A DNA stretch of 64,000 nt, from IMG/VR virus record IMGVR_UViG_3300029286_000029, one strand, 5' to 3'. The notes below the pieces were generated by a model, which ran no database searches, was not told the origin of the DNA, and saw nothing but the letters and a program-made list of their open reading frames with translations. This DNA comes from a virus. Positions 11,987 through 49,617 of this stretch are shown in pieces. Each line of letters starts with the position of its first letter. Positions within the stretch are counted from its first letter, which is position 1. A program made the position numbers and the translations under genes.

Positions 11987-12193
11987 GGGTATAGTATACG
12001 GGATTACATTATTAAAGTAAAGAGTAATATAATGCCGTTATACCACACCCACATGACGCAGAGATGGGGGATGACGTTTTATGTAAAACCTCATCTCAAA
12101 GGATTGAAGTTACTTCTCCTTTTCGTCCCCCAATGGGAATAAATCCCCCACCTCCGTGCCAATCACAATTGAAAGACGGTATAATTATAATCC

Positions 12194-12222
12194 TTGACAA
12201 GTCGCAATGCAAGAACTAAAAT
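12194..12222 (+). promoter_or_regulatory. Sigma70-like promoter, TTGACA-N17-TAAAAT. It is one of the CTTGACAAGT promoter family.
   Basis: TTGACA at 12194-12199, TAAAAT at 12217-12222, directly upstream of the gene starting at 12303. Confidence 0.5.
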
Positions 12223-12302
12223 TACTTTGGTTCTTTGACAATCCAATCTCATAATTTAGAAGCAAGAAGTCCGCGTAGCGGCAATAAGTCTTCATCAAAA
12301 AC

Positions 12303-13061
12303 ATGCAAAAATCATCATACGAATTCGAAGTTTTAGTTAACGGCCACTCGGCCAAAGAATATTACCAAGATGGTAAAACTTATCTTGAAGGAAAAGAAGG
12401 ATCGCGTTTCTCCTTAAGGATGCGCAACAACTCATCGAGTCGAGTGCTCTTCGTACCAACAGTGGATGGCTTGTCTATTCTGAATGGCAAGGAAGGCTCG
12501 TTCAAATCACGAGGTTATATCGTCGGCGCTTATGACTCTACCACTATTGACGGCTGGCGCACCTCTGACGATAAGGTAGCTGAGTTCTTCTTCTCGTCGC
12601 CTAAGGGCAGTTATGCCAAGAAGATGGGTAAGGGTGGCAACTTAGGTATTATCGGTTGCGCGGTATTCAAAGAGAAGCATAAAGAGAAAGAAATCGTTTA
12701 TGCTCCAATTATTATTCAAAATCCTAATAATAACCCTTGGTGGGGAAGTACCTATACGACAATAGCATCTAATTGCTCGGGATCATTCCCACTCTCTATG
12801 CAAAATGCTTCTCTCAATTCCGTTAAAGCTTTCAGTTGTGCTAATGCAGGATCAGATTTAGGCACCGGATTCGGTCAGGATAAGTATTCACCAACTACCT
12901 CTGTAGACTTTGATCGCGCTGATAGTCCAACCGAAATCTTTTCCTTCTATTACAACACCCGGCAGAACTTAGAAGCCATGGGCGTTGAGTTTCACAAACC
13001 AGTTTATGTTTCGCCATCCGCCTTCCCCAATGAAGATGGCTATTGCGAGAGACCTTATTAA
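12303..13061 (+). CDS. Hypothetical protein, 252 aa.
   Basis: ORF track. GC content is higher than in the flanking phage genes. Confidence 0.55.
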   Translation: MQKSSYEFEVLVNGHSAKEYYQDGKTYLEGKEGSRFSLRMRNNSSSRVLFVPTVDGLSILNGKEGSFKSRGYIVGAYDSTTIDGWRTSDDKVAEFFFSSPKGSYAKKMGKGGNLGIIGCAVFKEKHKEKEIVYAPIIIQNPNNNPWWGSTYTTIASNCSGSFPLSMQNASLNSVKAFSCANAGSDLGTGFGQDKYSPTTSVDFDRADSPTEIFSFYYNTRQNLEAMGVEFHKPVYVSPSAFPNEDGYCERPY

Positions 13062-13152
13062 AGGTAGAGGCAATTCCAGATACGGCTTTAAATAAGGGTT
13101 AAATCGTCACCAATTATTAGAGGCAATTAGAGAAGATTGGACCAAAGGATCT

Positions 13153-13235
13153 GCGTTAGTACCTAAGTGGTCAAAAGGGGGTGTCTGTAGAACACTTGCT
13201 TCGGCTTCGGGAGTTCGAATCTCTCCTAACGCACC
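13153..13235 (+). tRNA. tRNA-Tyr (anticodon GTA), class II with a long variable arm.
   Basis: Acceptor pairs GCGTTAG with CTAACGC. Anticodon stem-loop is GGTGT-CTGTAGA-ACACT. A 12-nt variable arm is present. T-arm is GGGAG-TTCGAAT-CTCTC, with discriminator A followed by CC. Confidence 0.7.
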
Positions 13236-13257
13236 TTATAAATTAACTCAAACTAAT

Positions 13258-47513: not shown

Positions 47514-47909
47514 ATGAAAAAGAAAAAAACAAAAATTAAAACTGAAAAACAATTCATCACCTGGATCGAACAACAGATTAAATTTTATTCGCCATATCTT
47601 GGTCTTCAACTTCACGACGTCAGAGTCAAACGATTTTCGAAACAAAATGACAATCCTGATGATTTCCTAGCGATTGATTGTACTTACCCATACCTTGATC
47701 CGAATATTCGTTATTCAAGAAAAGTATTTGAAGAATGGGCTCATGGGAATGTCAGGAAAGATCGGATCCTACATGAACTGATCCATATCATCACTGATCC
47801 ATTATTCTGCAAGGCAATCACCCGATACGTTTCTCAGAATGAAATTAAAGACGAACGAGAGAAGTTGACAGATACATTCGCGGCGATTATTAGGAATTTA
47901 ATAAAATAA
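47514..47909 (+). CDS. Small HExxH-motif protein of 131 aa (HELIH), immediately upstream of recA. Possibly an ImmA/IrrE-like or SprT-like metalloprotease.
   Basis: ILHELIHIITDP contains HExxH. The class assignment is speculative. Confidence 0.4.
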   Translation: MKKKKTKIKTEKQFITWIEQQIKFYSPYLGLQLHDVRVKRFSKQNDNPDDFLAIDCTYPYLDPNIRYSRKVFEEWAHGNVRKDRILHELIHIITDPLFCKAITRYVSQNEIKDEREKLTDTFAAIIRNLIK

Positions 47910-47910
47910 G

Positions 47911-48921
47911 ATGAAAAAAACCAAAGAAGAAAATGAGGCAGTAGAAGAAGCAATGGCTTCACTTCAAAAAAAATACGGTAAAGACGTTTTAATTCAAATG
48001 GATGCAGAAATGAGCTTCAAAGTAGAGGCTATCCCGACTGGCTGTTATTCCCTGGATGAAGCCTTGGGTTGTGGCGGACTACCTCGTGGACGTATCATCG
48101 AAATCTTCGGTAAAGAGAGTTCCGGCAAAAGCACTCTTACAACTTTTTTGATGGCGCAAATTCAGAAGTCTGGTGGACGAGCAGCTCTAATTGACGCAGA
48201 AATGGCTTTTGATGGAAGTTATGCTAAAGCCATTGGTGTTGAGGTGTCTAAACTCATGGTTTCACAACCTGGATCGTTGGAAGAGGGAATGGATGTTTTA
48301 CGAGAATTAGTTAACACTAAAGCATTTGATATTATTGTGATTGATTCAGTTGCCGCACTTGTACCTAAATCTGAAATTGAAGGGGATGAGATGTTAAAAG
48401 ATTCGATGGCAGTACAGGCACGTCTCCTTGGGAAAGCATTAAGAATTTTAGCTGGGGAAATTTCAAAGTCTAACACGATTGTAATATTTGTCAACCAAAT
48501 TAGAGATAAAATAGGCGTTTTTTATGGTGCGAAGACAGTGACACCAGGTGGCCGAGCTCTAAAATTCTTTAGTTCTATCCGTATGGACGTCTCTGCTGGA
48601 GATAAAATACTCGGAAAGAATGATGAACAAATTGGCAATTCACTCAGAGTTAAAATGGCAAAGAATAAGACCGCTCCACCATGGAGGGAAGCAAATTTCG
48701 ATTTATACTACTCAAGAGGGATAGACCTTATATCAGATGCTGTGGATTATGGCGAGAAAATCGGCGCGATAAAGAAAAGTGGAAACACTTATTCCTTCGA
48801 AGGTAAGGAATTAGGGGTAGGGCGCGAGAAGGTAATCAAAGCAGTCACTAATGATGAAAAGTTATTTAACGATATTAAAGACAAGATTAATAATGTAATC
48901 AAAACTAAAGATGCAAAGTGA
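47911..48921 (+). CDS. recA: RecA-family recombinase, 336 aa.
   Basis: GLPRGRIIEIFGKESSGKSTLT (Walker A), ALIDAEMAFD, IIVIDSVAALVPKSEIEGDEM and the L1/L2 loop region are all present. Confidence 0.9.
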   Translation: MKKTKEENEAVEEAMASLQKKYGKDVLIQMDAEMSFKVEAIPTGCYSLDEALGCGGLPRGRIIEIFGKESSGKSTLTTFLMAQIQKSGGRAALIDAEMAFDGSYAKAIGVEVSKLMVSQPGSLEEGMDVLRELVNTKAFDIIVIDSVAALVPKSEIEGDEMLKDSMAVQARLLGKALRILAGEISKSNTIVIFVNQIRDKIGVFYGAKTVTPGGRALKFFSSIRMDVSAGDKILGKNDEQIGNSLRVKMAKNKTAPPWREANFDLYYSRGIDLISDAVDYGEKIGAIKKSGNTYSFEGKELGVGREKVIKAVTNDEKLFNDIKDKINNVIKTKDAK

Positions 48922-49507
48922 TGAGAAAAAGTTAATAGATAAAAAAGTTTATGGTCTGTTAATTGAAATTAATAATAAAAATTTATTCATCAGCGTTCAA
49001 ACTGCTTTTAGTTTAGAAGAAGCTTTCCAGTTGGCCGGTAAGGAGTTTCAAACTCTTAATCCACCAAGACGGACCGGAGAAGATTTATTTAAGGGTTCAA
49101 AGATTGTTCTTTTTACAATTAAAACCTTTGAAGATTTAGCTTTCTCTAATAGCATTCCCATTCTTAATATAAAAACTGAACCTAAAAACGCTAGTAAGGA
49201 AGATATCCAGGCATTAGGAAAAGAAATAGATGAAACTCTTAAGCTTATGGGGATGATGTTTGACGGGCCACGATCAATAAAGAAACCGATAATTTCTACC
49301 GGGGTAAGAATTAAAGAGCAAGAAAAAAAATTACCTTTCCCGATGCCCAGACTGGAAAAACCAGTAGAAAAAGTTCTGACAAAAGAAGAAGAAAAAAATA
49401 ATCTAATGAGGATGATTATTGCGACTAAAGATAAAAAGTTGTTCGAGCAAAACAAGAAATCGCTTTCTAGAGCAGAAAAGGCATATATTACAAAACATCT
49501 AATATAA
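48911..49507 (+). CDS. Hypothetical protein, 198 aa.
   Basis: ORF track. Confidence 0.45.
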   Translation: MQSDEKKLIDKKVYGLLIEINNKNLFISVQTAFSLEEAFQLAGKEFQTLNPPRRTGEDLFKGSKIVLFTIKTFEDLAFSNSIPILNIKTEPKNASKEDIQALGKEIDETLKLMGMMFDGPRSIKKPIISTGVRIKEQEKKLPFPMPRLEKPVEKVLTKEEEKNNLMRMIIATKDKKLFEQNKKSLSRAEKAYITKHLI

Positions 49508-49527
49508 AGTGTAAATCCGCTTTTCAC

Positions 49528-49555
49528 TTGACAAGTGATATATCGGGTATATACT
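49528..49555 (+). promoter_or_regulatory. Promoter TTGACA-N16-TATACT within GCTTTTCACTTGACAAGT. Its upstream 18 nt are identical to the reverse complement of the 28.5-kb promoter.
   Basis: -35 at 49528-49533 and -10 at 49550-49555, upstream of the gene starting at 49618. Confidence 0.55.
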
Positions 49556-49617
49556 TAAGGGATAAGGTCGATGTTATTAGAAAGTTAAGTTAATTATAAA
49601 GTTAATCAAATAAAATT

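What the first reader, a model, noticed from the sequence alone, without database searches (positions are those of the whole stretch)
12190..49560. Recurrent extended palindromic promoter CTTGACAAGT-N-TATACT at about 8 sites, one abutting a small HTH regulator gene
A sigma70-type promoter with an unusually conserved extended -35 region recurs throughout the window. The extended motif is (G)CTTGACAAGTAAAAAG, with the palindromic core ACTTGTCAAGT. Every strong copy has a 16-nt spacer and a -10 hexamer that reads TATACT, TATAAT, TAGACT or TAAAAT.

Sites: 12194-12222 (+), 28525-28552 (-), 32425-32440 (-), 40581-40608 (-, with an extra GACAAGT half-site), 41847-41874 (-), 42243-42252 and 42294-42321 (+), 46675-46702 (+), 49528-49555 (+). 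The 18 nt upstream of the 49.5-kb copy, GCTTTTCACTTGACAAGT, is identical to the reverse complement of the 28.5-kb copy.

The palindromic symmetry goes beyond what RNA polymerase needs. One copy sits directly on the SD and start of an 80-aa HTH protein (32163..32405). Together these suggest an operator regulon controlled by that protein, superimposed on host-type promoters. It is a plausible early/middle switch.
Basis: seen in the sequence. Interest (0 to 1): 0.6.

Follow-up and report, generated by a model that had tools for sequence, protein, structure and literature searches.

The report
Conserved extended promoters of an uncultured phage
The recurring CTTGACAAGT…TATACT motif is a real, strongly conserved set of sigma-70-type promoters that head the early/middle transcription units of a novel ~100-kb uncultured phage, but nothing ties it specifically to the small HTH protein.

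Summary
CTTGACAAGT occurs 8 times exactly, against 0.10 expected. Seven copies are followed after 13-14 nt by a TAnAMT -10 hexamer. All lie between genes or in the last 35 nt of one, and they point at the downstream genes. They are the best sigma-70-like sites in the window.

The window is a novel phage with an SU10/P22-like portal, RecA, a primase-helicase, GroEL and 4 tRNAs. It has no close DNA match among 50,697 phage records. At least five related metagenomic phages (about 45-75% protein identity) carry the same 10-mer plus TATACT at syntenic positions, while the flanks have diverged. The family consensus is (A)CTTGACAAGT-aa-N-RGGWG-TATACT-T.

The supposed SD and start under the 32.4-kb copy is an artefact. 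This phage uses no Shine-Dalgarno sequences (4 of 93 genes), and "aaggag" is the conserved promoter spacer. The HTH gene starts 30 nt downstream (70 aa, as in about 60 homologue clusters).

That protein does have a MerR-type winged-helix fold. However, the promoters lack MerR-type architecture, and conservation around the palindrome is asymmetric.

The best reading is a lineage-specific class of strong promoters read by the host holoenzyme. An added phage factor is not excluded. The feature is ordinary in kind.

The parts
12193..12222 (+). Promoter copy: CTTGACAAGT, 17-nt spacer, TAAAAT. Heads the rightward block 12.3-26 kb (252-aa protein, tRNA-Tyr, RmlD-like protein, tRNA-Pro, many small ORFs).
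   Evidence: in the divergent intergenic region 11987-12302
28525..28553 (-). Promoter copy: tcaCTTGACAAGT-N13-TATAAT, a 12/12 match to the sigma-70 consensus. Lies just after the GroEL stop. Drives a structured RNA, tRNA-Asn and an NrdH-like gene.
   Evidence: orthologous copies after GroEL in L041, L142, L165/L115, L054, L166 and L167
28435..28517 (-). Conserved structured RNA element (three-way junction) at the 5' end of the transcript from the 28553 promoter.
   Evidence: 12 of 15 pairs show compensatory changes in 7 orthologues; no Rfam match
32404..32432 (-). Promoter copy: CTTGACAAGT-aaggaggaaggag-TACAAT. Promoter of the unit MerR-like gene, SNF2 helicase, GroEL.
   Evidence: syntenic copy in L001 at 3285(-)
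32163..32375 (-). MerR-type winged-HTH protein, 70 aa. This is the corrected start; the 80-aa ORF beginning at 32405 is over-extended.
   Evidence: Pfam MerR_1; orthologue alignment; 65 homologue clusters, almost all 66-74 aa; N-termini aligned; model pLDDT 93.8, TM 0.86 to MtaN
40581..40609 (-). Promoter copy: ccgCTTGACAAGTaaaaag..gggtgTATACT. An inverted ACTTGTC lies directly upstream (40611-40617) and forms an 18-nt inverted repeat with the motif. Heads the 40.5 to 32.4 kb unit (132-aa protein, ParB-like, SPFH, pilin-like, YopX, Fic).
41847..41875 (-). Promoter copy: ccgCTTGACAAGTaaaaag..gggtgTAGACT. Drives the HNH + nucleotidyltransferase gene. Lies back-to-back with the weaker rightward promoter at 41886-41913.
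41886..41913 (+). Predicted weaker divergent promoter (ATGACA-16-TACAAT) for the DUF5659 gene. Its -35 lies 10 nt from the palindrome.
42242..42251 (-). Orphan copy of CTTGACAAGT with no -10. It is inverted relative to the flanking genes and lies 42 nt upstream of the -35 of the 42294 promoter. Probably a relic.
   Evidence: In L166 and L167 the same intergenic position holds a co-oriented full promoter of the class (2265-, 4351-). L001 has none there.
42294..42321 (+). Promoter without the extension (TTGACAatg-N13-TATGAT) for the replication unit (DnaD-like, DnaC-like, primase-helicase).
   Evidence: the L001 equivalent TTGACAtat..TATTAT at 8366
46674..46702 (+). Promoter copy: ccgCTTGACAAGTaaaaaggaaggagTATACT, lying inside the last 34 nt of a 72-aa ORF. 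Its leader starts with AAGGTCGA. Heads the unit that includes RecA.
49527..49555 (+). Promoter copy: tcaCTTGACAAGTga..gggtaTATACT, a 15-nt perfect palindrome. Has an AAGGTCGA leader. Heads the 49.6-59 kb unit (SbcCD-like, RuvC, deformylase).
   Evidence: orthologues at L001 15696, L069 691 and L165 702

Best explanation
The motif is the core of a lineage-specific class of strong sigma-70/sigma-A-type promoters. A perfect -35 element (TTGACA) and a near-consensus -10 element (TATACT) are separated by 16-17 nt.

These promoters most likely recruit the host RNA polymerase holoenzyme carrying its primary sigma factor. They head about seven early/middle transcription units: replication, recombination, chaperonin, sugar-nucleotide genes, tRNAs and a structured RNA. 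The late structural block has none, apart from one copy in front of a homing-endonuclease ORF.

The extra conserved bases split into two groups. C before and A after the hexamer belong to the classical weak extended -35 consensus. GT, the A-tract, RGGWG just 5' of the -10 and C at -8 are family-specific and under purifying selection.

What is shown: the sites exist, they are placed and oriented as promoters, and they are conserved at syntenic positions across relatives. What is inferred: which polymerase or sigma reads them, their timing, and what reads the family-specific bases.
For: - Enrichment: 8 exact copies against 0.10 expected.
- Geometry and position: 7 of 8 have a correctly spaced -10. 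All lie in the roughly 8% of the window that is intergenic, or in the last 35 nt of an ORF, and point at the downstream genes.
- Independent ranking: they are the top sigma-70-like sites in a separate scan.
- Conservation: syntenic copies occur in L001/L041/L137, L142/L069, L165/L115, L054, L166 and L167, at 45-75% protein identity. The 10-mer is invariant and the flanks have diverged.
- Unbiased promoter definition: taking a perfect TTGACA plus a good -10 across the family gives 42 sites. Of these, 29 carry C...AGT. Most exceptions are variants of the motif or hits inside coding sequence. In unrelated phage loci only 9 of 157 sites carry AGT, whereas C at -36 (56%) and A after the hexamer (53%) are common.
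- Spacer flexibility: the spacer is 16 nt in some genomes and 17 nt in others, as expected for a -35/-10 promoter.
- Mixed promoters at one position: the orthologous replication promoter is a plain TTGACA promoter in some genomes (window 42294, L001 8366) and a class promoter in others (L166, L167). This points to one reading machinery.
- No phage sigma or polymerase: none was found among about 70 window proteins scanned against Pfam and PHROGs.
- Bacterial promoters: exact matches to the strict pattern occur as single promoters in diverse bacterial genomes.
Against: - The host is unknown. The complete absence of SD sequences is typical of hosts such as Bacteroidota. From general knowledge, their primary sigma does not use TTGACA/TATAAT. 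The Bacteroidota -7 motif is not enriched here.
- Invariance of G and T at -27/-26, the preference for C at -8, and RGGWG are not explained by known sigma-70 contacts.
- Some copies carry extra TTGACA or TGTCAA elements at fixed offsets, which could be factor sites.
- About 20 kb of the genome has not been seen and could encode a sigma factor.
- No transcript data exist.
Confidence: 0.6

Rival explanations
1. Promoter plus operator. A phage-encoded DNA-binding protein binds the palindromic box (A)CTTG-A-CAAG(T) that overlaps the -35. It would repress or activate the whole promoter set as a temporal switch. Candidates are the 70-aa MerR-like protein, the 132-aa or 78-aa winged-helix proteins, DUF5659, the Ros/MucR-like protein, or an unrecognised RHH protein.
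For: - The invariant G and T at -27/-26 and C at -35 make a 9-11-bp dyad that RNA polymerase is not known to need.
- One orphan copy has no -10.
- Additional inverted or tandem TTGACA copies occur at fixed offsets. TGTCAA lies exactly 17 nt upstream in 4-5 family promoters, and CTTGACAATTGACAAGT lies at the MerR gene promoter of L166 and L167.
- The MerR-like protein is a high-confidence wHTH with an invariant helix NKSKLAYY across about 60 homologue clusters. Its DNA target should therefore be conserved family-wide.
- In an unrelated temperate phage (L046/L128), the same 10-mer is embedded in 17-19-bp palindromes in a CI/Cro switch. Such promoter-operator overlaps therefore exist.
Against: - The specific clue (site on the SD and start codon) is an artefact.
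- Conservation is asymmetric: T at -26 is present in 19 of 19 sites, against A at -36 in 14 of 19. Neither the -35 dyad nor the AGTATACT dyad shows covariation.
- Half-site centres about 6 bp apart do not fit MerR-type dimers, which bind 17-22-bp dyads (general knowledge of the MtaN, BmrR, GlnR and RacA structures matched).
- The spacer is 16-17 nt, not 19-20.
- The MerR gene's own promoter is the most variable copy (CTTGCCAAGT, CTTGACACTT, CTTGACAATT).
- The orphan site is not conserved. It corresponds to a real promoter in L166 and L167.
- The fixed 19-bp centre-to-centre geometry is the same as that of the genuine back-to-back divergent promoters at 41866/41886.
- The MerR-like gene is always immediately followed by the SNF2 helicase gene. 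This suggests a different partnership.
Confidence: 0.22
2. The promoters are read by a phage-encoded sigma factor or through sigma appropriation (as with T4 MotA/AsiA), not by the unmodified host holoenzyme. The 10-mer centred near -30 and GGWGTATACT would then be the recognition elements of that factor.
For: - The roughly 30-nt conserved promoter resembles phage-specific promoter classes.
- The phage has SU10/phiEco32-type structural genes (SU10/P22-like portal; SU10-type capsid protein) and a phiEco32-like ligase. [quoted passage not shown] The phiEco32 gp36 promoter element is tAATGTAtA (PMC8948821), which shares the core TGTATA with ggGTGTATAct here.
- SD-less translation hints at a host whose own promoters may differ.
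Against: - No sigma, AsiA-like or MotA-like protein was detected in the window.
- phiEco32 gp36 promoters have no -35 element, whereas here TTGACA is invariant and the spacer behaves like that of a sigma-70 promoter.
- These promoters head early/middle genes rather than late genes.
- Plain TTGACA/TATAAT promoters coexist at orthologous positions.
Confidence: 0.13
3. The sites are not functional: a chance repeat or a dispersed mobile or recombination element.
For: Pairs and triplets of copies share 18-19 nt (GCTTTTCACTTGACAAGT; CCGCTTGACAAGTAAAAAG).
Against: - 8 copies against 0.10 expected.
- Strict intergenic placement and orientation.
- Conservation at syntenic positions in genomes whose flanks have diverged.
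- Similarity does not extend beyond about 30 nt.
Confidence: 0.02

Closest known systems
Sigma-70/sigma-A-dependent early promoter sets of lytic phages (T7 A1-A3, T5, lambda PL/PR, SPO1 early, 7-11/phiEco32 early). Cited from general knowledge and PMC8948821.
   Same: Near-consensus TTGACA and TATAAT-like hexamers with 16-17 nt spacing. Several copies per genome. They head non-structural transcription units and are read by the host holoenzyme.
   Different: Here ten contiguous bases at the -35, plus RGGWG before the -10 and C at -8, are almost invariant across at least six diverged genomes. The host is unknown and apparently does not use SD sequences.
T4 middle promoters (MotA box near -30 plus AsiA sigma appropriation). 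General knowledge.
   Same: A conserved 9-10-bp box centred near -30 combined with a -10 element. Multi-copy, in front of replication and recombination genes.
   Different: The box here contains a perfect -35 hexamer, so sigma region 4 need not be displaced. No MotA or AsiA homologue was detected.
Mycobacteriophage L5 gp71 operator and stoperators (13-bp asymmetric site whose reverse complement begins CTTGACA and overlaps the -35 of Pleft). General knowledge.
   Same: A multi-copy genome-wide site that contains cTTGACA plus an extension, with an orientation bias.
   Different: In L5 most copies are not promoters. Here 7 of 8 copies have a correctly spaced -10. No integrase or immunity repressor was found. 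The single orphan copy is not conserved.
MerR-family regulated promoters (merT, bmr, copA, soxS). General knowledge, plus the structures matched.
   Same: A protein with a MerR-type winged HTH is encoded next to one copy.
   Different: The spacer is 16-17 nt, not 19-20. No conserved dyad is centred in the spacer. The protein has no long dimerisation helix or effector domain.
CI/Cro-type operators overlapping the -35 in temperate phages (example found here: L046/L128).
   Same: The same CTTGACAAGT forms the -35 of a promoter and lies within a dyad.
   Different: There the dyad is 17-19 bp (GTCACTTGACAAGTGAC), is repeated at about +15, and lies between divergent XRE-type cI and cro genes next to a recombinase. 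None of that is present here.

Membership tests
Sigma-70/sigma-A-type promoter | -35 hexamer close to TTGACA | tested here: met
   6 of 6 matches in all 8 copies
Sigma-70/sigma-A-type promoter | -10 hexamer close to TATAAT, with A at position 2 and T at position 6, at 16-18 nt | tested here: met
   7 of 8 copies: TATACT x3, TATAAT, TAGACT, TACAAT and TAAAAT. Spacer 16 nt in six copies and 17 nt in one. The 42242 copy fails.
Sigma-70/sigma-A-type promoter | Located upstream of genes and co-oriented with them | tested here: met
   All 7 promoter copies are intergenic or within the last 35 nt of the upstream ORF, and are co-oriented with the downstream genes.
Sigma-70/sigma-A-type promoter | Transcripts start 6-9 nt downstream of the -10; dependence on the primary sigma factor | not testable with these tools
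   No transcript data are available and the host is unknown.
MerR-type regulated promoter | Over-long 19-20-bp spacer between the -35 and -10 | tested here: not met
   Spacers are 16-17 nt in 42 family sites.
MerR-type regulated promoter | Conserved dyad operator centred within the spacer | tested here: not met
   Spacer positions -23 to -18 carry little information. The conserved dyad lies on the -35 itself.
MerR family regulator (protein) | N-terminal winged HTH of MerR type | tested here: met
   Pfam MerR_1, E = 1.6e-5. Model pLDDT 93.8. TM 0.86 and rmsd 1.3 to MtaN.
MerR family regulator (protein) | Long antiparallel coiled-coil dimerisation helix and C-terminal effector domain | tested here: not met
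   The protein is 70 aa. After the wing there is only a 16-residue helix and a short terminal helix. It resembles minimal members such as GlnR/TnrA, RacA and BldC.
Operator regulon of a dimeric transcription factor | Two-fold symmetric conservation of half-sites | tested here: inconclusive
   The inner 4+4 bp are symmetric and invariant, but largely coincide with TTGACA+A. The outer pair is unequal, at 19 of 19 against 14 of 19.
Operator regulon of a dimeric transcription factor | Sites that exist independently of promoter function | tested here: inconclusive
   There is one orphan copy (42242). It is not conserved in L001 and corresponds to a full promoter in L166 and L167.
Operator regulon of a dimeric transcription factor | Binding of the proposed factor to the site | not testable with these tools
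   This needs EMSA or footprinting.
L5-type stoperator system | Most copies lie outside promoters and act with an immunity repressor in a temperate phage | tested here: not met
   7 of 8 copies are promoters. No integrase or repressor was found in about 70 proteins scanned.

The most novel reading that the evidence does not exclude
The invariant family-specific bases are GT after the -35, RGGWG before the -10, and C at -8. Together they turn both hexamers into short dyads, ACTTG-A-CAAGT and AGTATACT, whose centres lie about 20.5 bp apart. The most novel reading is that these bases are read by a phage-encoded factor. That factor would gate or re-programme the host polymerase at all early/middle promoters of a large, uncultured, SD-less phage lineage. 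It would be a new MotA-like or repressor-like temporal switch. The factor could be the invariant-helix 70-aa MerR-like protein, which is always encoded next to an SNF2 ATPase.
Probability: 0.2. Interest if true: 0.55.

Novelty: new member of a known kind. Interest (0 to 1): 0.3.

Why it matters
The result gives a ready-made promoter map for an uncharacterised lineage of about 100-kb environmental phages. It covers about eight transcription units and corrects one gene start. At least 60 related MerR-like gene clusters exist in metagenomes.

It also shows that these phages combine E. coli-like -35/-10 promoters with translation that uses no Shine-Dalgarno sequences. This constrains what the unknown host can be.

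The promoter consensus can be used to find relatives and to predict early and middle genes. As regulatory biology it is an ordinary kind of feature, unless the family-specific bases turn out to be read by a phage factor.

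Tried and rejected
- **Known phage relatives.** DNA searches against INPHARED found nothing useful. 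Protein searches with the portal, primase-helicase and GroEL found only distant hits of 25-49% identity, which gave no host.
- **Bacteroidota-type promoters.** The -7 motif TAnnTTTG is not enriched: 68 sites against 81 expected.
- **Phage sigma factor or RNA polymerase.** None was found in about 70 proteins scanned against Pfam and PHROGs.
- **Host from bacterial genomes.** The strict promoter pattern gave 9 loci: Oscillospiraceae, Saccharibacteria, Harrisonbacteria, Muribaculaceae and an unnamed low-GC MAG. These are single promoters and do not identify a host. The Harrisonbacteria locus uses SD sequences. No RNA genes lie downstream of these hits.
- **Shared regulator.** No window protein is shared with the unrelated phages that carry multi-copy CTTGACAAGT promoters, within the segments held.
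- **Literature.** Searching for the 10-mer returned only unrelated hits, apparently incidental sequence matches.
- **Rfam.** No match for the promoter-proximal RNA or for the 14.7-16.4 kb non-coding stretch.
- **Other dyads.** I considered a dyad between AAGT (after the -35) and ACTT (end of the -10). I rejected it as evidence because AGT stays invariant when the -10 is TATAAT, so there is no covariation, and several symmetries had been inspected.

Full report
**1. Observation**

The 10-mer CTTGACAAGT occurs exactly eight times in the 64-kb window: 12193+, 28544-, 32423-, 40600-, 41866-, 42242-, 46674+ and 49527+. Dinucleotide-preserving shuffles give a mean of 0.10 copies and never more than 2.

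Six copies are followed by 13 nt and a -10 hexamer (TATACT x3, TATAAT, TAGACT, TACAAT), which puts 16 nt between TTGACA and the -10. The 12193 copy has a 17-nt spacer and TAAAAT. The 42242(-) copy has no -10.

A scan of my own and the consensus-scan tool both rank these copies as the best sigma-70-like sites in the window.

All copies lie in intergenic DNA, which is about 8% of the window, or in the last 35 nt of an ORF. The seven copies with a -10 point at the downstream genes.

The 18-nt identity between the 28.5-kb and 49.5-kb copies is correct. The full 11-nt palindrome is present in only two copies. The AAAAAG tail is present in three.

**2. Context**

The window is phage DNA. It encodes:
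- an SU10/P22-like portal, a phiEco32-like COOH-NH2 ligase, a Prim-Pol/DnaB helicase, an SNF2 helicase and SbcCD-like proteins;
- RecA, a ParB-like protein, an SPFH protein and an RmlD-like protein;
- a DnaC-like protein, RuvC, a deformylase and a Fic protein;
- GroEL;
- a DnaD-like organiser, an HNH-nucleotidyltransferase and DUF5659;
- four tRNAs.

The window has no meaningful DNA match among 50,697 phage records, and only remote protein matches.

The same phage's contigs extend the map in both directions. To the left there is an SU10-type capsid gene interrupted by LAGLIDADG ORFs (L160). To the right there are tail and lysis genes (L161).

The promoters are confined to the 12-50 kb early/middle region. 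One more copy lies in front of a LAGLIDADG ORF (L160 4583+). None lies in 59-69 kb.

From placement, the promoters define about eight transcription units:
- 12.3-26 kb (+);
- 28.5 to 26.3 kb (-): structured RNA, tRNA-Asn, NrdH-like gene;
- 32.4 to 28.6 kb (-): MerR-like gene, SNF2, GroEL;
- 40.5 to 32.4 kb (-);
- 41.8 to 40.6 kb (-);
- 42.3-46.7 kb (+): replication genes, from a promoter without the extension;
- 46.7-49.5 kb (+): includes RecA;
- 49.6-59 kb (+).

**3. Relatives**

A relative was first found with the primase-helicase: L001, 67% identical in that protein, on a 101-kb contig. It carries the same 10-mer plus TATACT.

Pattern scans of viral contigs, tblastn and contigs encoding homologues of the small HTH protein added further members. 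These are L041/L137, L142/L069, L165/L115, L054, L166 and L167, at about 45-75% protein identity.

The promoters sit at syntenic positions in these genomes:
- after GroEL;
- before the MerR-like/SNF2 pair;
- at the divergent DUF5659 junction;
- before the orthologue of the 220-aa protein.

The 10-mer is invariant while the flanks and most of the spacer have diverged.

A logo of 19 non-redundant sites gives (A)CTTGACAAGT-AA-N-RGGWG-TATACT-T(A/G). C at -8 is present in 15 of 19 sites, G at -15 in 18 of 19, and G at -13 in 15 of 19.

I then used a definition that ignores the extension: a perfect TTGACA, a 16-17 nt spacer and a good -10. Under it, 29 of 42 family sites carry C...AGT. In unrelated phage loci only 9 of 157 do, although C at -36 (56%) and A after the hexamer (53%) are common there.

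So C and A belong to the general weak extended -35 consensus. GT, the A-tract, RGGWG and C-8 are lineage-specific and under purifying selection. The spacer is 16 nt in some genomes and 17 nt in others.

**4. The HTH link**

This does not hold, for three reasons.

- Only 4 of 93 genes in the window have any SD-like sequence. Leaders are A/T-rich, for example aaataaaattATG.
- The "SD" aaggaggaaggag is the promoter spacer. AGGAG directly 5' of the -10 is the family consensus.
- The L001 orthologue aligns from residue 12 of the ORF. Sixty-five homologue clusters are almost all 66-74 aa, and their N-termini align to M11, reading MK(H/Q)xSLGELA.

The gene is therefore 32163-32375. The site is an ordinary promoter with a leader of about 20 nt, exactly as in L001.

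The protein is a confident MerR-type winged HTH. Pfam gives MerR_1. The model has pLDDT 93.8 and a TM score of 0.86 to MtaN. It also resembles the minimal members GlnR/TnrA, RacA and BldC. Its helix NKSKLAYY is invariant across the family.

However, MerR-type control requires a 19-20-bp spacer with a dyad inside it. These promoters have 16-17 nt and no conserved dyad in the spacer.

The dyad on the -35 is only 9-11 bp. TTGACA followed by A is already TTG-A-CAA, so part of the symmetry is built in. The outer pair is unequal: T at -26 is present in 19 of 19 sites and A at -36 in 14 of 19. There is no covariation.

The HTH gene's own promoter is the most variable copy in the family: CTTGCCAAGT in L142, CTTGACACTT in L165, and CTTGACAATTGACAAGT in L166 and L167.

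The gene is always immediately followed by the SNF2 helicase gene. This suggests another partnership for the protein.

**5. What keeps the operator idea alive**

- The invariant G and T are not explained by known sigma-70 contacts.
- One orphan copy exists. However, L001 lacks it, and L166 and L167 have a full co-oriented promoter at that position, so it looks like a relic.
- Four or five family promoters have an inverted TGTCAA exactly 17 nt upstream. This is the same geometry as the genuine back-to-back divergent promoters at 41866/41886.
- Both hexamers sit in short dyads, ACTTG-A-CAAGT and AGTATACT.
- In an unrelated temperate phage (L046/L128), the same 10-mer lies inside 17-19-bp palindromes in a CI/Cro switch region.

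The window also encodes at least five other candidate DNA-binding proteins.

**6. Phage sigma alternative**

[quoted passage not shown] The phiEco32 gp36 element is tAATGTAtA with no -35 element (PMC8948821). The motif here shares TGTATA with it. However, it has an invariant -35 and heads early/middle genes rather than late genes. No sigma-like protein was detected in the window. About 20 kb of the genome remains unseen.

**7. Host**

The host is unknown. SD-less, A-rich leaders are typical of Bacteroidota (general knowledge), but the Bacteroidota -7 motif is not enriched. The strict promoter pattern occurs as single promoters in diverse bacteria, including CPR and Firmicutes MAGs. This shows that such sequences serve as bacterial promoters, but it does not identify the host.

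**8. Verdict**

The finding is a genuine, well-conserved promoter class of a novel phage lineage. Its kind is known: host-type phage promoters with lineage-specific extended conservation. The proposed HTH-controlled operator regulon is not supported by the evidence, and its main clue is refuted. A phage factor that reads the extra bases remains possible, at roughly 0.2-0.35 when the operator and sigma variants are summed.

The most unexpected things seen are side observations. One is a covariation-supported structured RNA driven by the 28.5-kb copy. The other is the complete lack of SD sequences.

Noticed in passing
window 28435-28517 (-), continuing to about 28091: A conserved structured RNA starts a few nt downstream of the 28553 promoter. 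It is a three-way junction: P1 (GGGG/CCCC), P2 with the loop gAATAAaCAATAA, P3, and a conserved GTTAAA. Seven orthologues all lie just after GroEL, and 12 of 15 pairs show compensatory changes. There is no Rfam match. In the window it is followed by about 330 nt of further GC-rich non-coding sequence and then tRNA-Asn.
   Followed up: partly
whole window (93 genes): The phage uses essentially no Shine-Dalgarno sequences (4 of 93 genes). Upstream regions are A-rich at -3, -5/-6 and -13/-14. This is unusual in combination with TTGACA/TATAAT-type promoters, and it constrains the unknown host.
   Followed up: partly
window 162-168(-), 36179-36185(-), 39139-39145(-), 40565-40571(-), 46707-46713(+), 49565-49571(+), and family loci: AGGTCGA occurs 10 times against 4.5 expected, always on the sense strand, with 6 copies in leaders. 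It begins 4-9 nt after the -10 of three window promoters and of promoters in L001, L069, L165, L166 and L167, so it is probably the 5' end of those transcripts. Its function is unknown.
   Followed up: partly
L160 3444-8208 (same phage, beyond the left edge of the window): The SU10-type major capsid gene appears to be split into three pieces by two LAGLIDADG ORFs and structured non-coding DNA, probably group I introns. One LAGLIDADG ORF has its own CTTGACAAGT...TATAAT promoter at L160 4583.
   Followed up: no
window 14665-16445: About 1.8 kb is almost non-coding and partly GC-rich, lying after tRNA-Pro. There is no Rfam match. It contains a repeated cgTATAATAAG and a CTTGATTTATCAAG dyad near 15.7 kb.
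   Followed up: no
window 16314, 21635, 23282, 25132 (+) and variants: TTAATAACTAA recurs at gene junctions in the 16-26 kb block of small ORFs, 17 times against 5 expected with up to one mismatch. It contains stop codons in two reading frames and sits in the A-rich region just before the next gene's start codon.
   Followed up: no
window 25898-26118: At the convergent end of the rightward block there are three terminator-like hairpins. Two are each followed by a repeated ..attgactgaaaaaat motif.
   Followed up: no
window 32163-32375 / 30457-32154 and L165-L167: The 70-aa MerR-like gene is always immediately followed by an SNF2-family helicase gene and then GroEL. The wHTH protein may be a DNA-targeting partner of the SNF2 ATPase rather than a promoter regulator.
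   Followed up: no
L046 700-800; L128 5700-5800: An unrelated temperate phage has a CI/Cro (XRE-type) switch and a serine recombinase. It uses GTCACTTGACAAGTGAC palindromes, one on the -35 of a CTTGACAAGT promoter and one at about +15.
   Followed up: partly
L105 4908-6756; L005 3772: Contigs of about 100 kb carry four tandemly spaced promoters reading GGCxCTTGACAAGTTTCAAAAAACCCTCTATAnT, in front of nearly leaderless small ORFs. No protein similarity to the window was detected in the segments held.
   Followed up: no
window 14029-14664, 27244-27717, 32932-33384, 40627-41817 (N-terminus), 50325-50768, 55127-55891, 58067-58705: There is an unusually high load of HNH-type homing-endonuclease-like genes or domains, at least seven in 64 kb.
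   Followed up: no
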